64,000 bases of DNA, taken from the IMG/VR virus record IMGVR_UViG_3300032266_000637. One strand, written 5' to 3'. Within the stretch, counting starts at the first letter, position 1. Each line of letters begins with the position of its first letter. The position numbers and the translations under genes are program-made. The notes below the pieces were generated by a model, which was not told the DNA's origin, made no database searches, and saw nothing but the letters and a program-made list of their open reading frames with translations. This stretch comes from an uncultured virus (IMG/VR IMGVR_UViG_3300032266_000637) (taxonomy: Duplodnaviria > Heunggongvirae > Uroviricota > Caudoviricetes). Shown one piece after another: positions 43,726 to 52,770 of the stretch.

Positions 43726-46700
43726 TCTATTATCCTAAATGACCAAGCTATTGGTCGGTCAAAGTTCCAGTTTTGTGCATCCTTCTCACTATGAAAATCC
43801 CAAATCTTGCCATAGCAATCAATGACTACCTTATCGCCAGGTTTTAGATCGTCAATTTTGACAGCCTTGTGACCAGCATTGGGGCAAGCCCATTGTTTTT
43901 TATACGGGTGTTTTAGCATATAAGGTTCTGTGTCAATTAGTGTCCATTCGTTTCTAATCATATTGCCTCCTCATACTGTTCAATAGTAATACCAATTGAG
44001 TCACAAAAATCTGATAACAGATCGCCTCTTTCCATTGCTGATAATAACATATCACCATTGCCAATAAGTTTACGATCCATAAGATATTCTGCGTATCGAT
44101 CTTCCAAACTTTTGGTTGGTGGGTTGACCAGTTTGGTAATAAAGCTTTCTACAAATTGTTGTTCCCAGTTCATAAAACCTCCGTAAATATTAAAGTTAGC
44201 ACAATGCTGCTGAAGATCATACCAAAAATCAAAAACCAATTTACCGCATATAGATTGGTTTGTCCATAAAAGCAAGTCAAAAAGATTAAGCCAAAAATGA
44301 ATGTTAATAGTAAGTTCATACTGCCTCCTCTTCTGAATTCAATAAAATAACATGAGAATCATCGTACACAATCTCGCCAAGAAAAGTATCGGGCATAAGA
44401 TAAGAATCATAATTATTGGCGATCATATAATCATCAGCCTCTTCTTCTGTCATACGTGGTTCTACATGGTCAATGCTATGTACGATCACCATTTCGGTAG
44501 AATCGTACCCTTTAACAAACGCACCATGAGTCATGCGACCAAACCAAACGGCAGTCTTTTTCATACTGTTTCCTCCCACAAATTTAATATATCTTTTCGA
44601 AACTGCTCAGATGTGTAATCACCATTTGCCATTTCAACTAACAAACCAAGCAAAGCCTCTTTACTGTCGTGGTCACTACCGACCCAATGTTGCACCATCA
44701 TTTGATTAATTCTTTTCATATTAGTTCTCCAAGTGGATAGTTAATGTTACTGGGTTGTAAATCTCATTCTCTTCTAACCAGAGATGGCAATCAGAGGCGG
44801 TTTTGAAGTGAATTTGGTGATCCAAAACCTGGCCAGCCTCGGGCTGCTCAGCTTGTTTAATAAACTCTTTGCAACAATTCACTAATATTTCTTGGGCATC
44901 ATCGTAATGGATCTGCCCCTCGTCCCATTGTTCGTGAATGTCATTGACCGAAAAGTGTAAGCTATCGATTGTGTATAAATTCATACTACCTCCTTAAATT
45001 TAACTTCAAATGTACAAAAGTCTTCGTCACATTTTAAACAAGCAAACTGGTAACCCTCGCTTACCTTGTTTGGTTCTTGGGTAAGCAAACCACTACAATG
45101 TTTGCAGAATGGTTTGTAGTTTTTCATTTGATAATGCTCCTATCTCTATAAGGTTTATTTAATTGATACTCGTCACACTCGATGCCATGTTGATCCCCAA
45201 ACATAAACCAATCGGGTTCAAGATTACATTGTTTAGTGTGAATACGCAATGCCTCTAATACTGTTTCAATAGCAGTATCGTCACTTTTACTATATGCCTC
45301 GAATGAGAAATTGCGACTGTCATAATACGCACGATAGATTTTCATGATAGTTTCTCCGTTAAGTTACCCTCGTTCCACATCGCTCTTGCAAAACTGATAA
45401 TGTCATCACTTACTGGGAAATCATAACCCTCGGCATGATGCTCGATTACATCGATGGGGCATTCTGTTTCTGTTGGGAAATTGTCACCCCACAATTCACC
45501 CCATGGTTTGTCGTTGGTTTTTTCTACCCAGTAATCACAAACACCAACTTCCATTGAACGCATTACCATAGCATTCATGCAATCCAAGGACAAGTAACCC
45601 CAATTGGATAGTTCATTACGAACATCCAAAACATTCTTGTTGGGGTTGTTTGCCATATATTCCTTGATATAGCTATCATCTACTTCAAATACCATTTTGA
45701 TTTTCATAACATTCTCCTTGTTGAAGACTCAATATTACTGCCACTACAATAAAAGTAAATAGGTAGAAACCCTGGTCCCGGGACCAGGGATTACCCCTAT
45801 TGATTCTCAAGGCTGCCTTGCACTTCTATTTCTGCGACTCGCCAATCTTTGTGGTTAAAATCTTCTAAGTAACCCATTTCAACTGCTAGTTCACAATCCA
45901 TAATGAAATCTTGCAGTTCAAAGAATGCATCATCTTTAGTATCGTAAAAAACTGGAGGTTCACAAGTGTCCTCCCAGTCACCATTTGCAAGTAAGGTTTG
46001 GATTTGCCATTTTTTCATTTGATCCTCCGCACCCAATGGTTGCCAGTAATGCAAGAAAATTCAGCATAGTCATTAACATCAAGTGATTTCACCATGTCAA
46101 TTTCTACTTCACCATACCCACGATCTTCAGTAAAGAAATCCTCATCGTGGTATGCAAGCATGGATCTATTGTCCGCATCACGATAGCCATCACCCCAAAA
46201 ACATTCAAATAGTTTCATCAAATACTCCATAGTCGTTTTCTACATCCATGATCTGATTGAAATCAAAATCATAGTCCAGTTTGCCACCTACTACTTTCCA
46301 ATCTCCTTGGAAGAATGGGTACGATTCAACATAGCCACCATCTTGGCTATCATCTGCGTCCATATCCAAAAAGATCAATTCACGAACAGTTTCCATACTG
46401 TCACGATCGCCCAGTTTGAGATTTACCCAAACTTCACAATCGTATTTTTGATTAAATATTGCATATGTATTGCTCATCATTTGCTCCCTTTAATTAATAA
46501 TTCAACAAATAATTTAGCATGAGTAGATTGCTCAAATGTAGCTACCCAATACTTTCGTGTTGCCTCTTCGATCCTAAATACTTTCCAAGTAAAATCGGGA
46601 TCTTTTACTATTTCAAAATTCATGCTTTGCTCCCTTGTTTTAGTTAACTACTGACTCCAACAAAAACCACTCTATAGAATGGTTTTTAGTAGGTCAATAA

Positions 46701-47503
46701 TGGTTTACCCTAATCCTGGCCGTGGTATAAAAACAACACTTAGGTTAGGGGTTGATCAATCCCTCATCCAGTAACTGGCGAAGGGTACGCCCAAAAAACC
46801 CTTGTAACCCATAACCTATACGACTGTCATGCAAGTGTTGCCAAGCTTGTAATACTTGCTCTTCACTATCGCATTCGATAAACCCCTCTGCAATTCCAAC
46901 TGCTTGATAGCTATCCATTTATATCCTCCATTTGTTTTAACTGCTCAATTGTGTGAGATTTTAAAAACTTTTTTACTTCATTTTTGGTTTTGAATAAACC
47001 TAGTGTTTTGGGGTTAATTTGATTTTCGTCCATCATCAAATCTATCATTACACAAAAACGATAGTAAGCATCATCGCTAGGGTTATAGCATTCACTTTTA
47101 TTTTTGTTTTTGTAATCGCAATAAACTAGGATATATTCATGCTCCCCTATTTCTTTACCGATACAAGGGCAAGCATCATTTTTATATGAGAAATCAGAAA
47201 AACCCTCAATTACTGGGAGGGTATCGTCATACCTAGGAAATGCATATTCAATTAGTGACATTTTTATGCTCCCTTTAATAAGTTTTTTAATTCTTGCTTT
47301 AATACTTTGGCATCGTTACCCCTAAAGGTTGATGCATTAGCTAAAAAATACATAATGACACTTCGAGCATCATCATAGATATATTTTGAATGAATGTTAT
47401 CTAGATACTCCATTGCATCTAAATATGGTTTAGCTCCGAAATAGGGTTTTGCCCAAACCCGTTTTATATCTCTTGCAATACTACTGATTGATCTTTTTTC
47501 CAT
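43722..47503 (-). other. cluster of small early-type hypothetical CDS
   Basis: Many co-oriented, mostly acidic ORFs of about 45-120 aa with GGAG RBS and ATGA overlaps, incl. 46745-46918 not in track. Confidence 0.65.
46669..46697 (-). promoter_or_regulatory. putative host sigma70 early promoter
   Basis: TTGACC-N17-TAGAGT, preceded by an AGGGTAAACC box. Confidence 0.45.
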
Positions 47504-47578
47504 TTGCTTATGCTCCCTTGTTTACTGGTTAAAAAAGTGTTGCTATACATACATTTTAATAGTTTGCCTAGTATTTTG

Positions 47579-47827
47579 GTAAACTAAAAACCCTAATAGG
47601 GTTAACCCTGATAAATGGGGGGCAAAATGCCTGTTGAGAATGATTATCAATTAAGCATACCCCTAAAATCGATTTAAACGGGTTTTGGAGGGTTTTGATG
47701 GGTTTGCTCATAAGTGCATTGGGAGGGTGTCGATCGTTTAACTGGGGACGATCTGATCGTTAGGGTTTACCCTTACCGGGATGTTGTTTTGCAGCAACAC
47801 TTTGCTTGTCAATAGGTAAAAACCCTG
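47579..47827. repeat. regulatory cassette copy 1 (diverged direct repeat of 48625-48861)
   Basis: Same ordered elements: AGGGTWWACCCT, Fur-like box, GATCGT-N10-ACGATC, AGGGTTTACCCT, TGTTG-N8-CAACA, GTCAATAGGT. Confidence 0.85.
47635..47649. promoter_or_regulatory. Fur box
   Basis: TGAGAAT-G-ATTATCA, one mismatch to the 7-1-7 core TGATAAT-N-ATTATCA. Confidence 0.65.
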
Positions 47828-47862
47828 TGTGTTGTTTTCATACCACGGCCAGGTTTTTAGGT

Positions 47863-47889
47863 AAAAAAAAACCCTCCAATTGGAGGGTT
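47863..47889 (-). terminator. intrinsic terminator after gp88-like gene
   Basis: AACCCTCC-AATT-GGAGGGTT followed by T run on minus strand. Confidence 0.7.
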
Positions 47890-47909
47890 ATAGGGTTTTA
47901 CCTAATTGC

Positions 47910-48548
47910 TTAGTGATATTTATAGGAAATATTAGGAATTGATTTATCCCAACAATTGCGACAATCTAAGCATTTTCCGCCTTGCTTATAACTAGGGCAT
48001 TCTGTGCCAATTGCACTATTAACTAAATGTACTGTGGATGTATTGGAAAATTTTGGAGGGTTACTATCCCTTTTTGTTGCAGATACTCTCACAATTAAAT
48101 TAGTAGGAAAATCCCCAAAAGTATCTTGATATTGCTTTACTAAATTACTCTCTTTAGTGGGTATCCAAAATTTAGTATTAGGGCATTGCTCCGCAACACT
48201 CACAATATTAAGCAAGTGTTGGAATGATTGAATATCTCCGCTATCATGCCATCTAAAATATTGCATTTGTTGCTTATTGATAATAAATACCATAGCGTCA
48301 ATCCATTGTGGATTTGTAAGGGTTTGATATCTCCGCTCATGAGCAATATCTATTGTTTTGGCATAGCGTACATAATTACCCTTAAGAGCGTAACAATTAT
48401 GACAAACTGTACCCTCTATTTTTGCAAGCTTTGATCCAGTATTACAACGCTTTGCTGATATTGAATAGCTAGAACATGGCATTTTAGATGGAGCGGATAA
48501 CCCCCCAACAATTTCTAAAGCTTGTTTAATGGTTTTGATTTGTTGCAT
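47910..48548 (-). CDS. gp88-like protein (Cys-rich, radical-SAM-like)
   Basis: SKMPC, VCHNCYA, YFRWHDSGD, CP.....GKCLDCRNCW; GGAGG RBS. Confidence 0.8.
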   Translation of the reverse strand: MQQIKTIKQALEIVGGLSAPSKMPCSSYSISAKRCNTGSKLAKIEGTVCHNCYALKGNYVRYAKTIDIAHERRYQTLTNPQWIDAMVFIINKQQMQYFRWHDSGDIQSFQHLLNIVSVAEQCPNTKFWIPTKESNLVKQYQDTFGDFPTNLIVRVSATKRDSNPPKFSNTSTVHLVNSAIGTECPSYKQGGKCLDCRNCWDKSIPNISYKYH

Positions 48549-48624
48549 ACATCCTCCAATTGTTTAGTTAATTAGGATATTGCTCACCTAATACTATAAT
48601 TTTAAAGCTTTGTGCAATAAATTA

Positions 48625-48861
48625 GTAAACTAAAAACCCTAATAGGGTAAACCCTAGGTTTTGCCTGTTGATAATCATTCTCATTTGACTATGCCCCTAA
48701 AAACCATTTAAACGGGTTTTGGAGGGTTTTACTGGTTTTGCTTACAAGTGCATTAGAGGGTTAGTGATCGTTTAATATGGCACGATCTGAGACTTAGGGT
48801 TTACCCTAGGCCAGGTGTTGTGTGAATACAACAGTCACTTGTCAATAGGTGTTTACCCTAA
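48625..48861. repeat. regulatory cassette copy 2
   Basis: See copy 1; palindromic elements conserved, spacers diverged. Confidence 0.85.
48669..48683. promoter_or_regulatory. Fur box
   Basis: TGATAAT-C-ATTCTCA, one mismatch to the 7-1-7 core. Confidence 0.65.
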
Positions 48862-49000
48862 TTGCTGTTTAAGTGTCGTATATTTGCAACATGGTCGGTT
48901 TGCCTAAATATTAAGCAGATTAGCCCTATACCTCTCGCACCCGCATAAGTCAATAGGTACATTCCCTGATAGGGTAAACCCTGATTGGGCAATTTGCTTA

Positions 49001-49284
49001 TGCACCAACTTGGTGCTGGTCCAATGCACCAGATTGGTGCGCCTGGTTAGTGAGTACTTACTAACTTGCCCCATTGTTAGCGTCCACTAACTTGCTGCAT
49101 TGCACAACTTACCAATGCACCAGATTGGTGCTGGTCCAAAGTGAGTGAGTGCTTACTTACCAGGTGCACCAGATTGGTGCGCTTGGCAATGTGAGTAAGT
49201 GCTAACTTACCTAATGCACCAAGTTGGTGCGGCCGGTAAGTTAGTGAGTGCTTACTTCAATCAGGTGAGTGAGTACTTACTAAC
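49001..49284. repeat. array of alternating palindromes: 5 NtrC-like and 5-6 SlmA-like sites
   Basis: TGCACCA-N3-TGGTGCK at 49001, 49025, 49116, 49165, 49215; GTKAGTRAGTRCTWACTWAC-type at 49046, 49141, 49191, 49240, 49265. Confidence 0.8.
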
Positions 49285-49468
49285 TTGTCAGGTTAGAGCG
49301 TTGTTATTCTGCAACAAGGCAAAGGGGTGTTGTTTTTGCGCCACACCACCACTTTACGACTCCCTGAGTTTTGGGGCGGGGAGGCTCCAACCAAACCCAA
49401 GGTCTTGTCGATTTCCTATACATGTTTTTTGGATATGTATATTTTTTTTAATTTTTTATACATATTGA

Positions 49469-49805
49469 CTGACTTGTATAGTAATAAGACAGGATACGAT
49501 TTTTATATCGCGGCGCACCATTTTTGCTCTAAGTTTTTGTTTTATAAGGAAAAGTACTGACTTGTATAGTAATAAGGTGACAGGGTACAAAAACGCATCC
49601 TGTCTCCAAAACGCTTGTAAGTTATTGTTCTATAAGGGCTGTATAGTAATAAGACAGGGTATCCATAGTATTTCTTTATTTTTTATTTTTAATTTAAAAA
49701 AATAAAATAACATATACAGCATAAACTTGGAATTACTGTGGATACTATGGATACCCTGCCTCCTTCTATACAAGTTTGTGGATTTAGGGCGCAACTTGTA
49801 TAGAA
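49469..49805. repeat. origin-like element copy B
   Basis: TGTATAGTAATAAG x3; 20-bp inverted repeat (1 mismatch) 49652-49671/49742-49761 around an AT tract; 13-bp inverted repeat 49764-49776/49793-49805. Confidence 0.65.
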
Positions 49806-49819: not shown

Positions 49820-49822
49820 TAC

Positions 49823-50083
49823 ATGAAGAGAATCAATCCAGATACCAACCAACCGTTCAAGTACGGCGACAAGCGCGCTGACGGAATGGTATTCTTTAAC
49901 TACCGTAGCGATAAACTACTCACCGGGTTTCAAGGTGAGCGTTGGTTAACGCCAGCAAAGTTCTTATTGGCTGAAGCAAGGGATCGGTTCCTTAAGCATA
50001 AAAAACGACGGCAAGATGGGAAACCCATAAGGATGACAAGAGGCAAGAATGAAAGATTGCGAGATAAAGAAGCCCATGTCTAA
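49823..50083 (+). CDS. basic hypothetical protein
   Basis: MKRINPDTNQPFKYGDKRADG; ATG 3 nt after promoter motif. Confidence 0.6.
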   Translation: MKRINPDTNQPFKYGDKRADGMVFFNYRSDKLLTGFQGERWLTPAKFLLAEARDRFLKHKKRRQDGKPIRMTRGKNERLRDKEAHV

Positions 50084-50354
50084 GAACTATGTTTACCAGA
50101 TCAAGGGCATTATGGAACTGCCCAACAAAGAAATCGGTGCGATCCGAGTTGCTATATGCTCAGTTGATATACTTGACTATGTGGATGTGCCAGCAGCCAT
50201 ATTTAACAAAGAGCTTCTTGCCTACCTCAAGTATCGATTGGCAGTAAACAACTATGTCGATGTGCGTAAGTTTCCAGACAAGATCACCAACCAGCTTAGA
50301 ACCCCACTGAATACCTATCTGGATAACTGGGTGTTGTCTTCCTCCTTCAAGTAA
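50049..50354 (+). CDS. hypothetical protein
   Basis: Overlaps both neighbours; start may be the downstream MSKNY. Confidence 0.55.
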   Translation: MKDCEIKKPMSKNYVYQIKGIMELPNKEIGAIRVAICSVDILDYVDVPAAIFNKELLAYLKYRLAVNNYVDVRKFPDKITNQLRTPLNTYLDNWVLSSSFK

Positions 50355-51334
50355 TGGCGATTGCTGGAGATACCCCCGTGCCGGTTCCTAGCGGCTGGAC
50401 GATTGCCTCCCAGCTAAAACCTGGTGACTATGTGTACGGCTCGGATGGACTGCCGCAGAAAGTCTACACTACCCACACCTACACCCCCGCCCAGATGTAT
50501 TTGGTCACGATGGGGGACGGTGTTGCCATTGAAACGGATCAGCATACCCTCCTGCCGATCAGCACCATCAACAACCGCATCGTAGAGAACAAGTACAAAG
50601 GTAAACGCAAGCGCAGAGCCGTCCAGAAGTTTGCCACACCGACCGAACTGCTCGAGCATGGGCTCAAAGGGACGAACAGGAACTGGCTGTTCTCGATCAC
50701 TAACACAGCCCCAGTGCAGTTCCCTCATGAAGACCACCCTGTACCCCCGTTCATTGCGGGGATGTGGATGACAAGACGCAACCATCAGAGTCACTTCTGC
50801 TTAAGGGAAGAGGTTTTGGAGTATGCCCAGAAAGAAATCCGTTCTTGTGGCTGGGCGTTTGTGATGTTGCGTAAGAATTTACTAGAATTGCGCCCCAACA
50901 TACGCAATTCGTTCTTAACTCGCTACCCTATCATCCCCACCACACTGCCAGTGGACTATTATTTCGGGTCAATTGAGCAACGGATTGACCTTTTGCGGGG
51001 ATTATTGGTTACAAACCCTAGCGCTTACAACAAAAAGACTGAAGAATTTCTGATTCACAGCAGAGATTTGCGTCATTTGATTAAATTGCAAGGAATTTGT
51101 GAATCATTGGGCATGAAAACCCAAGTTTTTGAGAATAAAATCTCTTTCACGCATAGATTACGTTTTAAAACCAACATCGTTCTGCTTCCGTGGCAAAAAG
51201 TTGAACCCAATTTGAAAAATGCGGGAAGAAGATCGATTACTGGTGTGGAGCCAATCCGTAGTTCGGCATCAATCCACATCACCACAGAAAAGCCCTTCGT
51301 AGTAGGGCAGGGATTTTTACCAATATGGCATTAA
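50354..51334 (+). CDS. free-standing degenerate intein-like protein (Hint + LAGLIDADG remnants)
   Basis: AIAGDTPVPVPSGW..LKPGDYVYGSDG.P..V block A; PPFIAGMWM and SIEQRIDLLRGLL endonuclease blocks; FVVGQGFLPIWH end. Confidence 0.75.
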   Translation: MAIAGDTPVPVPSGWTIASQLKPGDYVYGSDGLPQKVYTTHTYTPAQMYLVTMGDGVAIETDQHTLLPISTINNRIVENKYKGKRKRRAVQKFATPTELLEHGLKGTNRNWLFSITNTAPVQFPHEDHPVPPFIAGMWMTRRNHQSHFCLREEVLEYAQKEIRSCGWAFVMLRKNLLELRPNIRNSFLTRYPIIPTTLPVDYYFGSIEQRIDLLRGLLVTNPSAYNKKTEEFLIHSRDLRHLIKLQGICESLGMKTQVFENKISFTHRLRFKTNIVLLPWQKVEPNLKNAGRRSITGVEPIRSSASIHITTEKPFVVGQGFLPIWH

Positions 51335-52770
51335 CTAAACTTCAAGAAACGATTCTTGACAAATTTGCGCAAGCAAACAAGCATTGGCCAAAGGATCAGC
51401 TCGATCTAGCGTTATGGCGAGTGCGATGGGAGCTCATGGCACTAGATCATCAAAGGGAACCAGAAGATGGTGAGTACAACACGATGCTGATGCTCGCAGG
51501 TCGTGGTGCTGGTAAGACTTACACAGCGTCTAACTGGATTGGAATTCGAGCGTCTCTTTATAACGGCACTCGTTGGTTGGTAACAGCCCCCACTTCAAAC
51601 GATATTAGAGCAACTTGCTTTGAGGGTGACTCGGGACTGATGAACATCATCCCTCATACGCTCATTGACACCTACAACAAATCGCTGTTTGAAATCCACC
51701 TAAAAAACGGCTCGATCATTCAAGGTATACCTGGTTCAGAACCAGAACGGTATCGTGGTAAACAGTTCCATGGTGCGTGGTTTGACGAGTTGGCGGCGTT
51801 TGACTACCTAGACGATGCATGGGATCAAGCGCAGTTCACTCTGCGTCTACGGGACAGCCGTATCAAGCGAGTCCAGCAGATTGTTACCACCACCCCCAAA
51901 CCAAAAGAGCTCATCGTTGATCTGAACGAGGGTAAGGTAGGGGGTGATGTGTATGTGGTGAACGCCAGCTCGTACGACAACCGAGAGAATCTGTCTGAGT
52001 CGTTCTTCAACGCACTAGAGACATACGAGGGCACCGACTTAGGTAAGCAAGAGATCTATGGTGCGATCCTTGACCCCGAGGATGCGGGTATTGTCAAGCG
52101 TAAGTGGTTGAAGATGTGGCCAGCCAAACAAGCCACGCCAATTCTTGAGTATGTGATTGCCAGCTACGACCCAGCAACCAGTGAGAAGACGACTAACGAC
52201 CCGACTGCTTGCGAAGTGTTCGGTATCTTTGAGCACCCAGACAAAGGCACTTGTGTTATGTTACTGGACGCATGGGATACGCACATGTCTTACCCCGAGT
52301 TGCGTAAGAAAGTGATCAGCGATTTTAAAGAAGTGGTGTACGGATCAGACAACGACTTCGCTAAAGGGCGAAAGGCTGACCTCATACTGATGGAAGATAA
52401 GTCCGCTGGTATTTCACTGATCCAAGAGCTCCAAGGCTCGGGTGTACCAGTGCGAGGATACAACCCCGGCAAAGCGGATAAGGTGCAGCGATTGAACATT
52501 GTGGCACCGCTCATTGCTAAAGGGAAAATTTACATTCCAGAAGATCCAGACATCCCCGGCGAATTTGCACCATGGGCAAAACGACTCATTAGGCAAGTCT
52601 GCTCGTTCCCAGAGGCGGGTGGGCATGATGACTATGTGGATGCCCTATCACAAGCACTGAGGGTGCTCAGAGACTCTGGTTGGATCCAGCTTGACATTCT
52701 GCCAGCAAGAGACTATGGTTACTCAGATGATGAGAAAGCCAAGCAACGGTACAACCCCTATGCAGCATAG
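51325..52770 (+). CDS. terL: terminase large subunit
   Basis: AGRGAGKT Walker A, AWFDE Walker B, VTTTPK, SYDPA, MEDKSAG, HDDYVDA. Confidence 0.95.
   Translation: MALTKLQETILDKFAQANKHWPKDQLDLALWRVRWELMALDHQREPEDGEYNTMLMLAGRGAGKTYTASNWIGIRASLYNGTRWLVTAPTSNDIRATCFEGDSGLMNIIPHTLIDTYNKSLFEIHLKNGSIIQGIPGSEPERYRGKQFHGAWFDELAAFDYLDDAWDQAQFTLRLRDSRIKRVQQIVTTTPKPKELIVDLNEGKVGGDVYVVNASSYDNRENLSESFFNALETYEGTDLGKQEIYGAILDPEDAGIVKRKWLKMWPAKQATPILEYVIASYDPATSEKTTNDPTACEVFGIFEHPDKGTCVMLLDAWDTHMSYPELRKKVISDFKEVVYGSDNDFAKGRKADLILMEDKSAGISLIQELQGSGVPVRGYNPGKADKVQRLNIVAPLIAKGKIYIPEDPDIPGEFAPWAKRLIRQVCSFPEAGGHDDYVDALSQALRVLRDSGWIQLDILPARDYGYSDDEKAKQRYNPYAA

What the first reader, a model, noticed from the sequence alone, without database searches (positions are those of the whole stretch)
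49046..49284. Cluster of SlmA-binding-site-like palindromes: possible DNA-encoded cell-division block
Seen: 20-mers at 49046, 49141, 49191, 49240 and 49265 with cores GTGAGTACTTAC, GTGAGTGCTTAC or GTAAGTGCTAAC, plus GTTAGCGTCCACTAAC at 49076, interleaved with NtrC-like boxes at about 25-bp pitch. Known: the E. coli SlmA consensus is GTGAGTACTCAC, and DNA-bound SlmA antagonises FtsZ assembly. Inference: replicating phage DNA recruits host SlmA and stops septation without encoding an FtsZ inhibitor. Another TetR-family binder is possible, and the host is unknown.
Basis: partly seen in the sequence, partly recalled or inferred. Interest (0 to 1): 0.85.

Follow-up and report, generated by a model that had tools for sequence, protein, structure and literature searches.

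The report
Phage array of SlmA-type binding sites
A non-coding stretch of an uncultured freshwater phage carries tightly packed, near-perfect copies of the DNA sites that the bacterial division inhibitor SlmA and the nitrogen regulator NtrC recognise, which suggests that the phage DNA itself captures host proteins and may stop the infected cell from dividing.

Summary
Window 49001-49284 holds five 20-bp palindromes (box B), one 16-bp variant and five 17-bp palindromes (box A), about 25 bp apart. They lie in the 1.2-kb untranslated spacer between leftward early genes and the rightward packaging genes of a lytic-type phage.

Box B matches the experimentally defined SlmA site: 4 of 5 fit the 12-bp rule, and 3 of 5 fit the 20-bp E. 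coli consensus with 0 mismatches. No E. coli K-12 chromosomal site fits with fewer than 2. Box A is the NtrC consensus in 16 of 17 positions.

Both boxes recur in over 100 related viral contigs. Positions not used in the searches also follow the host consensus.

Arrays of box B alone lie upstream of terminase genes in several phage lineages. The gene next to the array is unrelated or of a different family in these lineages, and no TetR-type gene was found in the phages searched. A shared host factor therefore fits better than a phage packaging protein.

SlmA orthologues with an identical recognition helix are common in the bacterial family of the one MAG that holds a fragment of this phage family.

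The host, actual binding and any division phenotype remain untested. Published work shows that multicopy tandem SlmA sites block division.

The parts
49001..49284 (.). whole array: 5 box A, 5 box B and 1 16-bp variant, with a 49-50-bp A+B unit repeated three times
49046..49065 (.). box B1, GTTAGTGAGTACTTACTAAC; 0 mismatches to the 20-bp pattern GTNAGTRAGYRCTYACTNAC
49141..49160 (.). box B2, GTGAGTGAGTGCTTACTTAC; 0 mismatches
49191..49210 (.). box B3, GTGAGTAAGTGCTAACTTAC; 1 mismatch; its core breaks the 12-bp rule at one position
49240..49259 (.). box B4, GTTAGTGAGTGCTTACTTCA; core perfect, 2 mismatches in the outer flank
49265..49284 (.). box B5, GTGAGTGAGTACTTACTAAC; 0 mismatches
49076..49091 (.). 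16-bp variant GTTAG-N6-CTAAC (GTTAGCGTCCACTAAC). The tighter form GTTAGT-N4-ACTAAC is in 29 of 71 related regions, 30 copies in all. GTTAG-N6-CTAAC is in 29 of 58 protein-found relatives.
49001..49017 (.). box A1, TGCACCAACTTGGTGC+T; 16 of 17 to the NtrC consensus
49025..49041 (.). box A2, TGCACCAGATTGGTGC+G
49116..49132 (.). box A3, TGCACCAGATTGGTGC+T
49165..49181 (.). box A4, TGCACCAGATTGGTGC+G
49215..49231 (.). box A5, TGCACCAAGTTGGTGC+G
48549..49726 (.). 1.2-kb spacer without a recognised gene, between the leftward early genes and the rightward packaging genes; the array lies in it
47910..48548 (-). first leftward gene, GP88 family (PF17338)
50049..50354 (+). 101-aa protein conserved downstream of the array (71 of 83 loci); fold without a clear solved relative
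50354..51334 (+). free-standing intein-like protein with a PI-SceI-type fold
51325..52770 (+). large terminase subunit

Best explanation
Box B elements are high-affinity binding sites for the host's SlmA, the TetR-family nucleoid-occlusion factor. Box A elements are binding sites for the host's NtrC.

The proposed mechanism has four steps:
1. The phage DNA enters and replicates, and each copy offers five consensus-grade SlmA sites.
2. SlmA dimers-of-dimers load on these sites and are switched into their FtsZ-antagonising form.
3. Phage DNA is not confined like the nucleoid, so active SlmA-DNA complexes spread through the cell.
4. Z-ring assembly is blocked, and the infected cell stays undivided without a phage-encoded FtsZ inhibitor.

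What is shown: the sequence identity of the sites, their conservation, their spread across lineages, and the lack of a phage TetR gene. What is inferred: SlmA binding, the host's identity and the division block. I put about 0.65 on SlmA binding and about 0.4 on the whole chain being the selected function.
For: 1. Core match. 4 of 5 boxes meet the mutational rule G,T,R,A,G,Y per half-site (rule from PMC3020112).

2. 20-bp match. The consensus oligo in PMC4423959 contains GTAAGTGAGCGCTCACTTAC. B1, B2 and B5 fit GTNAGTRAGYRCTYACTNAC with 0 mismatches. The whole E. coli K-12 chromosome has no site with fewer than 2 mismatches.

3. Independent positions. In 205 unique boxes from 185 viral loci plus the window, the four flank positions not used in the search read G 0.81, T 0.76, A/T, A 0.90. 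This is the consensus flank. The same holds in three other gene contexts.

4. Same motif, different neighbours.
80 loci were fetched and 79 new ones analysed.
- 64 of the 79 lack this family's genes.
- Of those 64, 42 hold one of two other large-terminase clusters (31 and 11 loci). Five of the other 22 also hold a large terminase.
- The gene next to the array differs between lineages. The 101-aa and 151-aa families are unrelated (hhalign probability 0.2%). Other loci hold an Sf6-type small terminase or a weak Terminase_2 match.

5. The boxes are optional. Among 58 relatives found by protein with at least 1400 bp upstream, B is in 49 and A in 40. Two cultured relatives of the second lineage have no site.

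6. No phage binder of the right type.
- No TetR_N or HTH_8 match in 4 related phage records, 3 of them at least 91% complete.
- No such Pfam match among the 89 window ORFs scanned.

7. SlmA is available. Matches above the curated cut-off occur in 44 of 61 genomes of the order and 37 of 41 of the family of the MAG holding a phage fragment. Two such orthologues share the stretch VSEAALYRHF with E. coli SlmA. That this stretch is the recognition helix is my recall of TetR-family structure.

8. Precedent. Tandem SlmA sites on a multicopy plasmid give a lethal SlmA-dependent division block (PMC3573117).
Against: - The host is unknown. The only host hint is a 1.2-kb contig binned into a Betaproteobacteria MAG, and no slmA was found in that MAG itself.
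- The 20-bp motif is not enriched in 61 genomes of that order: 241 hits against 343 for the reversed control at up to 3 mismatches (my sums). The test is weak, because E. coli itself gives only 19 against 10.
- The arrays sit again and again just upstream of terminase genes. At least 62 of the 79 loci hold a large terminase within 2.5 kb. A pure decoy does not require this position.
- Box A pairs are largely confined to this one phage family (67 of 80 loci). That could point to a family-specific phage binder for box A.
- No cultured phage record holds such an array, so nothing can be tied to a known host.
- No binding or phenotype data exist.
Confidence: 0.4

Rival explanations
1. The boxes do bind host SlmA and NtrC, but the selected function is local. 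The bound host proteins would act at the neighbouring late or packaging operon in one of two ways. They could be architectural helpers for terminase assembly, as IHF is at lambda cosB (recalled). Or they could be a copy-number timer: scarce SlmA represses the adjacent promoters until replicating phage DNA titrates it away. Any division block would then be a side effect.
For: - Box B arrays lie 100-160 bp upstream of the gene in the small-terminase position in 28 of 28 loci of a second lineage. Arrays also lie upstream of terminase genes in further lineages.
- In the window's family the array is upstream of the 101-aa / intein-like / terminase trio in 74 of 83 loci, always pointing away from it.
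- SlmA is present at about 300-400 molecules per cell (PMC4726725 passage), so about 100 genome copies could titrate it (my arithmetic).
- Relatives carry sigma-54-type promoter boxes beside box A, a complete NtrC/sigma-54 control module.
Against: - Close relatives with the same packaging genes lack the boxes, so the boxes are not needed for packaging.
- The window has no sigma-54-type promoter scoring at least 9 of 12 in the spacer.
- The genome ends are not mapped.
- The region next to terminase genes is often the largest non-coding stretch of a phage, so the position may be only permissive (inference).
Confidence: 0.25
2. One or both box types are bound by an unrecognised phage-encoded protein, and the likeness to host sites is convergence or mimicry. 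For box A this would be a protein specific to this phage family, such as the 101-aa protein or an early ORFan. The array would then be an operator, packaging or partition-like site of the phage's own.
For: - Tandem box A pairs occur almost only in this family (67 of 80 fetched loci carry its genes).
- Many small early ORFs have no family match.
- The 101-aa protein has a confident model (pLDDT 86.9) with no clear solved relative.
- In some relatives box A is replaced by another palindrome, TGTTGCA-N-TGCAACA, as expected if a phage binder changed.
Against: - Four separate motif classes match host consensus sites at positions not selected in the searches.
- Box B is shared by lineages whose neighbouring genes are unrelated.
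- Box type does not follow divergence of the adjacent proteins. Relatives at about 30% identity keep A and B, while some at about 50% lack A.
- The intein-like protein has the single-chain PI-SceI-type fold. Such enzymes read long asymmetric sites rather than short palindromes (for the fold; the specificity is recalled).
Confidence: 0.2
3. The array is part of the replication origin, with the repeats acting as iterons.
For: - Cumulative GC skew has its minimum at 46-50 kb.
- An AT-rich stretch flanked by a 20-nt inverted repeat lies 370 bp to the right.
Against: - The skew minimum coincides with the switch of coding strand.
- The boxes are palindromes of two unrelated kinds rather than direct iterons.
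- They are missing from close relatives.
- Box B arrays occur in phages with other replication modules.
Confidence: 0.05

Closest known systems
Chromosomal SlmA-binding sites (SBS) of E. coli and relatives
   Same: Same 12-bp palindromic core and same 20-bp extended palindrome. The predicted binder is a TetR-family dimer-of-dimers.
   Different: In E. coli there are 24-52 dispersed, degenerate single sites (PMC4726725). None fits the 20-bp pattern with fewer than 2 mismatches. Here 5 sites lie within 240 bp, three of them perfect, on a virus, interleaved with another protein's sites.
Laboratory multicopy plasmid with two tandem SBS (pHC534; PMC3573117)
   Same: Tandem SlmA sites on a multicopy replicon. 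This was shown to inhibit Z-ring assembly throughout the cell in an SlmA-dependent way.
   Different: The plasmid is an artificial construct, and its effect was scored with induced slmA. The phage array is natural, larger and conserved in more than 100 contigs.
NtrC enhancer sites at sigma-54 promoters (e.g. glnAp2)
   Same: 17-bp TGCACCAnnnTGGTGCA (PMC8743547). Relatives also carry TGGCACnnTTnTTGC-type boxes, the sigma-54 motif.
   Different: The window has five sites but no sigma-54-type promoter in the spacer. In relatives the promoter-like boxes occur in both orientations and only 11-12 bp from box A. That is not the usual arrangement of an enhancer about 100 bp upstream (recalled).
Host-factor site in a phage packaging region: IHF site I1 in lambda cosB (recalled)
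   Same: A host DNA-binding protein's site lies in the non-coding DNA just upstream of the small-terminase gene.
   Different: Lambda has a single IHF site among sites for the phage protein gpNu1. Here there are arrays of host-type sites, they are optional among close relatives, and no terminase-specific repeats were identified.
Protein or RNA division inhibitors of phages and prophages (lambda Kil, T7 Gp0.4, DicB/DicF; recalled)
   Same: The proposed outcome is the same: the Z ring is blocked during infection.
   Different: Those are gene products acting on FtsZ or its partners. Here the proposed agent is a stretch of phage DNA that activates a host inhibitor.

Membership tests
SlmA-binding site (SBS) | 12-bp palindrome with G,T,A,G at positions 1,2,4,5 of each half, a purine at position 3 and a pyrimidine at position 6 | tested here: met
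   4 of 5 boxes are exact and the fifth has one half-site with T at position 3. The rule is from PMC3020112.
SlmA-binding site (SBS) | Extended 20-bp consensus GTAAGTGAGCGCTCACTTAC | tested here: met
   B1, B2 and B5 have 0 mismatches to GTNAGTRAGYRCTYACTNAC, B3 has 1 and B4 has 2. Unselected flanks in 205 boxes read G/T/W/A.
SlmA-binding site (SBS) | The organism in which the site acts encodes SlmA | tested here: inconclusive
   The host is unknown. slmA is above cut-off in 37 of 41 genomes of the family and 44 of 61 of the order of the MAG that holds a phage fragment. It was not found in that MAG itself.
SlmA-binding site (SBS) | Specific binding by SlmA, and SlmA-dependent antagonism of FtsZ | not testable with these tools
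   Needs EMSA or fluorescence polarisation, and a slmA+ versus slmA- plasmid assay.
NtrC enhancer site | 17-bp palindrome TGCACCAnnnTGGTGCA | tested here: met
   All five boxes match 16 of 17. In 237 unique boxes the unselected T before GCACC is at 0.75 and the A after it at 0.97.
NtrC enhancer site | Serves a sigma-54 (-24/-12) promoter nearby | tested here: not met
   The window's spacer has no site scoring at least 9 of 12 to TGGCACG-N4-TTGCW. Such boxes are found in 12 of 103 and 4 of 80 related loci.
Terminase recognition site (cos/pac) | Lies beside the terminase genes | tested here: met
Terminase recognition site (cos/pac) | Specific to, and kept together with, its small terminase | tested here: not met
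   The same 20-bp motif sits beside unrelated or different neighbouring proteins. The boxes are absent from relatives with the same packaging genes.
Terminase recognition site (cos/pac) | Virion DNA ends map at or near it | tested here: inconclusive
   Only assembled contigs were available, no raw reads. Two near-complete related contigs break at a homopolymer run between array and packaging genes, which may be an assembly effect.
Replication-origin iterons | Direct repeats for an initiator next to an AT-rich unwinding element | tested here: inconclusive
   The boxes are palindromes of two kinds. An AT-rich inverted-repeat element lies 370 bp away, and the GC-skew minimum coincides with the strand switch.

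The most novel reading that the evidence does not exclude
A large group of uncultured freshwater phages uses non-coding DNA as an effector. The spacer upstream of the packaging genes would be a landing pad of consensus-grade sites for several host DNA-binding proteins. SlmA sites are the most widespread; NtrC, sigma-54 holoenzyme and Fur sites are present in subsets. As the genome replicates, the pad would capture or activate these proteins. That would impose a DNA-encoded division block and rewire or sense the host's nitrogen and iron responses, without any dedicated phage protein.
Probability: 0.3. Interest if true: 0.9.

Novelty: new variant of a known kind. Interest (0 to 1): 0.8.

Why it matters
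Known phage division inhibitors are proteins or small RNAs. A natural virus that blocks division by displaying the host's own nucleoid-occlusion sites on its replicating DNA would be a new class of host takeover, invisible to gene-based annotation.

It would give SlmA biology a natural gain-of-function case with sites better than any chromosomal one. It would also suggest that large non-coding regions of phages can be read as lists of host proteins the phage engages, which might be used to predict hosts.

The idea can be tested at once with existing E. coli tools, namely purified SlmA and the tandem-site plasmid assay.

Tried and rejected
- **Own genome.** The window's own assembly is not held. 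The nearest record, G001, has no match to the spacer.
- **Cultured phages.** No match to the spacer or to a triple box B query at E up to 10.
- **Earlier notes of this scan.** Nothing found by place or by sequence.
- **Known RNAs.** Rfam gave only sub-threshold microRNA look-alikes on the inverted repeat.
- **Hairpin right of the array.** In the window it folds no better than shuffles (z = 0.53). I do not call it a terminator here, though relatives have a clearer stem followed by a T run (read by eye).
- **tRNAs.** None.
- **Genome ends.** Nine runs were listed, all as assembled contigs, and no RNA holder was listed. Read laying was therefore not run and the ends are unmapped.
- **Contig ends.** Many related contigs end in or beside the array, at varied positions. 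Two near-complete contigs break in a homopolymer run. I read these as assembly breaks.
- **Box B enrichment in candidate host genomes**. No enrichment was found, but calibration on E. coli shows the test has little power.
- **MW202545**, the closest deposited relative by terminase. It has a different gene order and no boxes.
- **The 101-aa protein.** No Pfam or PHROG family, and no solved-structure match with E below 0.001.
- **Not used.** Complex prediction (no protein pair in question), the metagenome-contig scan, the search for homologous proteins, the search of protein representatives and the protein-atlas search.

Full report
**What the window is**

The window is a phage genome with a lytic-type gene set.

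- Minus-strand genes from 48548 down to 26723 include a GP88-family protein, a sigma factor, a C5 methylase, a D5-type primase-helicase, an SNF2 helicase, a family A DNA polymerase, a ribonucleotide reductase and an Enc34-type ssDNA-binding protein.
- Plus-strand genes from 49727 onward encode the large terminase, portal, capsid and tail proteins.
- Basis for both lists.
- No integrase or tRNA was found.
- The finding lies in the 1.2-kb spacer between these divergent blocks (48549-49726).
- The window's own assembly is not held.

**The observation**

- The relaxed SlmA core GTRAGYRCTYAC occurs 4 times in 64 kb, all within 49050-49280. Shuffles expect 0.06.
- The five exact TGCACCANNNTGGTGC boxes all lie in 49001-49230.
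- The boxes alternate at 22-28 bp centre to centre.
- A composite A+B unit of 49-50 bp is repeated three times. The alternation may therefore simply reflect tandem duplication.

**Are the boxes SlmA-type and NtrC-type sites?**

*Box B*
- Tonthat et al. (PMC3020112, passages read) define the site as GTGAGTACTCAC. G, T, A and G are required at positions 1, 2, 4 and 5, with a purine at position 3 and a pyrimidine at position 6.
- Four of the five boxes obey this rule on both halves.
- PMC4423959 (passage) gives the consensus oligo taken from Cho et al. It contains the 20-bp palindrome GTAAGTGAGCGCTCACTTAC.
- The window's boxes have that same 20-bp build. B1, B2 and B5 fit GTNAGTRAGYRCTYACTNAC without a mismatch.
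- As a calibration, the E. coli K-12 chromosome has 19 sites at up to 3 mismatches against 10 for the reversed control, and none with fewer than 2 mismatches. The strict core gives 5 against 2. The phage sites are therefore closer to the consensus than any natural E. coli site.

*Box A*
- The NtrC consensus is TGCACCAnnnTGGTGCA (PMC8743547, passage).
- All five boxes match it at 16 of 17 positions.

**Conservation**

- A relative whose neighbouring protein is 53% identical keeps the array.
- A scan for box A within 5-35 nt of box B found 103 viral stretches.
- In 74 of the 83 loci that could be analysed, the array lies upstream of the same three genes, always pointing away from it. The three are a protein of about 101 aa, an intein-like protein of about 326 aa, and the large terminase.
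- These loci fall into two clades whose intein-like proteins are only about 30% identical to each other, yet the boxes are the same.
- Positions not fixed by my search patterns follow the host consensus. The four flank bases of 205 unique B boxes read G 0.81, T 0.76, A/T, A 0.90. In 237 unique A boxes the flanking T is at 0.75 and the inner A at 0.97.

**Other host-type motifs in the same spacer of relatives**

- 12 of 103 pattern-found loci and 4 of 80 protein-found loci carry one to four copies of TGGCACnn(T/A)TnTTGC.
- That is the sigma-54 motif TGGCACnnTTnTTGC reported in PMC8743547. About 0.04 copies are expected by chance in all the DNA examined.
- These copies are often interleaved with box A.
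- 28 of 103 and 17 of 80 loci carry a 7-1-7 palindrome of the type TGATAAT-N-ATTATCA. The window has two, at 48669 and 47635.
- This resembles the Fur box. The 19-bp consensus string appears with the phrase 'Fur box' in 51 papers (search listing only). The 7-1-7 reading of it is recalled.
- Four motif classes matching host consensus sites make coincidence very unlikely.

**Host factor or phage protein?**

Six results favour a host factor for box B.

1. No TetR_N or HTH_8 domain was found in four related phage records, three of them at least 91% complete. Neither domain matched any of the 89 window ORFs scanned with Pfam.
2. An unbiased search with the intein-like protein found at least 520 relatives.
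   - Of the best 80, 58 have at least 1400 bp upstream.
   - Box B is present in 49 of the 58, box A in 40 and both in 35.
   - Four loci (L171-L174) have neither.
   - In L132 box A is absent and another palindrome, TGTTGCA-N-TGCAACA, stands beside the B boxes.
   - Box content does not track protein divergence.
   - Of 79 new loci analysed, 64 lack this family's genes and range from 36% to 63% G+C.
   - 31 of them hold a different large terminase. In 28 of these a 151-aa gene starts 100-160 bp from the array.
   - 11 hold a third terminase cluster. At least five more hold a large terminase of other clusters; two of these also hold an Sf6-type small terminase.
   - The 101-aa and 151-aa families are unrelated (hhalign probability 0.2%).
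   - The unselected flanks of box B are the same in all these contexts.
4. Two cultured relatives of the second lineage have no such site: phage DSL-LC05, whose large terminase is 68% identical, and a Ralstonia phage.
5. The intein-like protein has a PI-SceI-type single-chain fold (model pLDDT 89.8; TM about 0.7). As I recall, such enzymes read long asymmetric sites, which does not suit short palindromes.
6. A host factor with E. coli-like SlmA specificity explains the shared motif.

Box A differs. 67 of the 80 fetched loci with tandem box A belong to this one family. A family-specific phage binder for box A therefore remains possible.

**The host and slmA**

- A scan of bacterial genomes for the A+B pattern gave two hits.
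- One is a 1.2-kb fragment of this phage family binned into a Betaproteobacteria MAG.
- The other is a single A-plus-B pair in a high-G+C Gammaproteobacteria MAG chromosome, which I read as probable chance. That MAG has slmA.
- NCBIfam NF007015 (SlmA) passes its cut-off in 44 of 61 sampled genomes of the first MAG's order and in 37 of 41 of its family. It passes in only 1 of 14 control genomes, E. coli. One of the 61 is an unpublished genome (G033).
- The MAG itself gave no match.
- Two of these orthologues are 44-46% identical to E. coli SlmA and share the stretch VSEAALYRHF. That this stretch is the recognition helix is my recall of TetR-family structure.
- The 20-bp motif is not enriched in the 61 genomes (241 against 343 control, my sums). 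The E. coli calibration shows this test has little power.
- The NtrC motif is enriched in 4 of 5 genomes tested.

**How it most likely works**

- DNA-bound SlmA is the active form that antagonises FtsZ (PMC4726725 and PMC4117426, passages).
[quoted passage not shown] The cause is plasmid-borne SlmA-DNA complexes dispersed through the cell (PMC3573117, passage).
- A replicating phage genome with five stronger sites should do the same in a host with SlmA.
I rank it first, at about 0.4 for the whole chain.

**What it leaves open**

- The repeated placement just upstream of terminase genes suggests a local role as well or instead. The bound proteins could be an accessory for packaging, or a titration timer for the adjacent operon (0.25).
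- The position may also be only permissive, because that is where these genomes keep their largest non-coding stretch.
- The genome ends could not be mapped. Only assembled contigs were on offer. The breaks of two near-complete contigs fall in a homopolymer run.

**Known or new?**

- My full-text searches found no report of SlmA sites in a phage genome. I searched 'SlmA' + 'bacteriophage' + 'binding sites' + 'phage genome'. Three papers were listed and none is on this topic by title or abstract.
- No cultured phage record holds such an array.
- The sites themselves are a known kind. Their natural occurrence as consensus-grade arrays on viruses, mixed with other host-regulator sites, is a new variant.
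- If the division block or a broader capture of host proteins is confirmed, it would be a new mode of host takeover.

Noticed in passing
window 50354-51334 (+): A free-standing intein-like protein is encoded between the 101-aa gene and the large terminase, in its own reading frame. Its N-terminus matches DnaB inteins (6bs8, E = 2e-8). The model (pLDDT 89.8) matches PI-SceI with TM about 0.7. It begins Met-Ala instead of Cys and lacks the usual terminal His-Asn (the usual motifs are recalled). At least 520 viral stretches encode a relative. It looks like a domesticated intein endonuclease in the small-terminase neighbourhood.
   Followed up: partly
related loci, e.g. L036, L083, L030, L073, L023 (oriented regions): Repeated exact sigma-54 promoter-type boxes (TGGCACGGTTCTTGC) are interleaved with box A, in one or both orientations. 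They occur in 12 of 103 and 4 of 80 related loci and are absent from the window.
   Followed up: partly
window 48669-48683 and 47635-47649: Fur-box-like 7-1-7 palindromes (TGATAATCATTCTCA and TGAGAATGATTATCA). Similar ones, some exact to TGATAAT-N-ATTATCA, occur in 28 of 103 and 17 of 80 related loci.
   Followed up: partly
window 46699-48983: A third palindrome, TAGGGTWWACCCTA, occurs 7 times at up to 2 mismatches, against 1.99 expected. All copies lie in the early region and the spacer, several of them between small early genes. Its binder is unknown.
   Followed up: no
window 49475-49488, 49563-49576, 49640-49653: Three exact copies of TGTATAGTAATAAG point towards the packaging genes. Two of them score as weak sigma-70-type promoters with TATAGT as the -10 element. 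A similar TATAGTATTAGG lies on the minus strand upstream of the first early gene (read by eye).
   Followed up: no
window 49652-49761: A 20-nt inverted repeat, 95% complementary, flanks a 70-nt AT-rich stretch. The arms contain TGTGGATAC, which resembles a DnaA box (recalled consensus). In two near-complete related contigs (G002, G003) the assembly breaks in a homopolymer run at the equivalent place. This could be an origin or a genome end.
   Followed up: partly
L203-L281 (other viral contigs): Arrays of two to five near-perfect 20-bp SlmA-type palindromes lie 100-160 bp upstream of genes in the small-terminase position in other phage lineages (G+C 36-63%). They are often followed by a G-rich tract. 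L213 has three identical copies 4 bp apart.
   Followed up: partly
L110 2990-3055: A high-G+C Gammaproteobacteria MAG chromosome has overlapping NtrC-type boxes next to one SlmA-type core, GTGAGTGCTTAC. The MAG encodes SlmA at 281 bits. This is probably a chance neighbourhood.
   Followed up: no
window 49820-50083 (+) and relatives: A small basic protein (about 87 aa from its ATG, with the motif NPxTNxPFKxGDxRxDG) lies between the spacer and the 101-aa gene in 25 of 83 loci. It has no family match.
   Followed up: no
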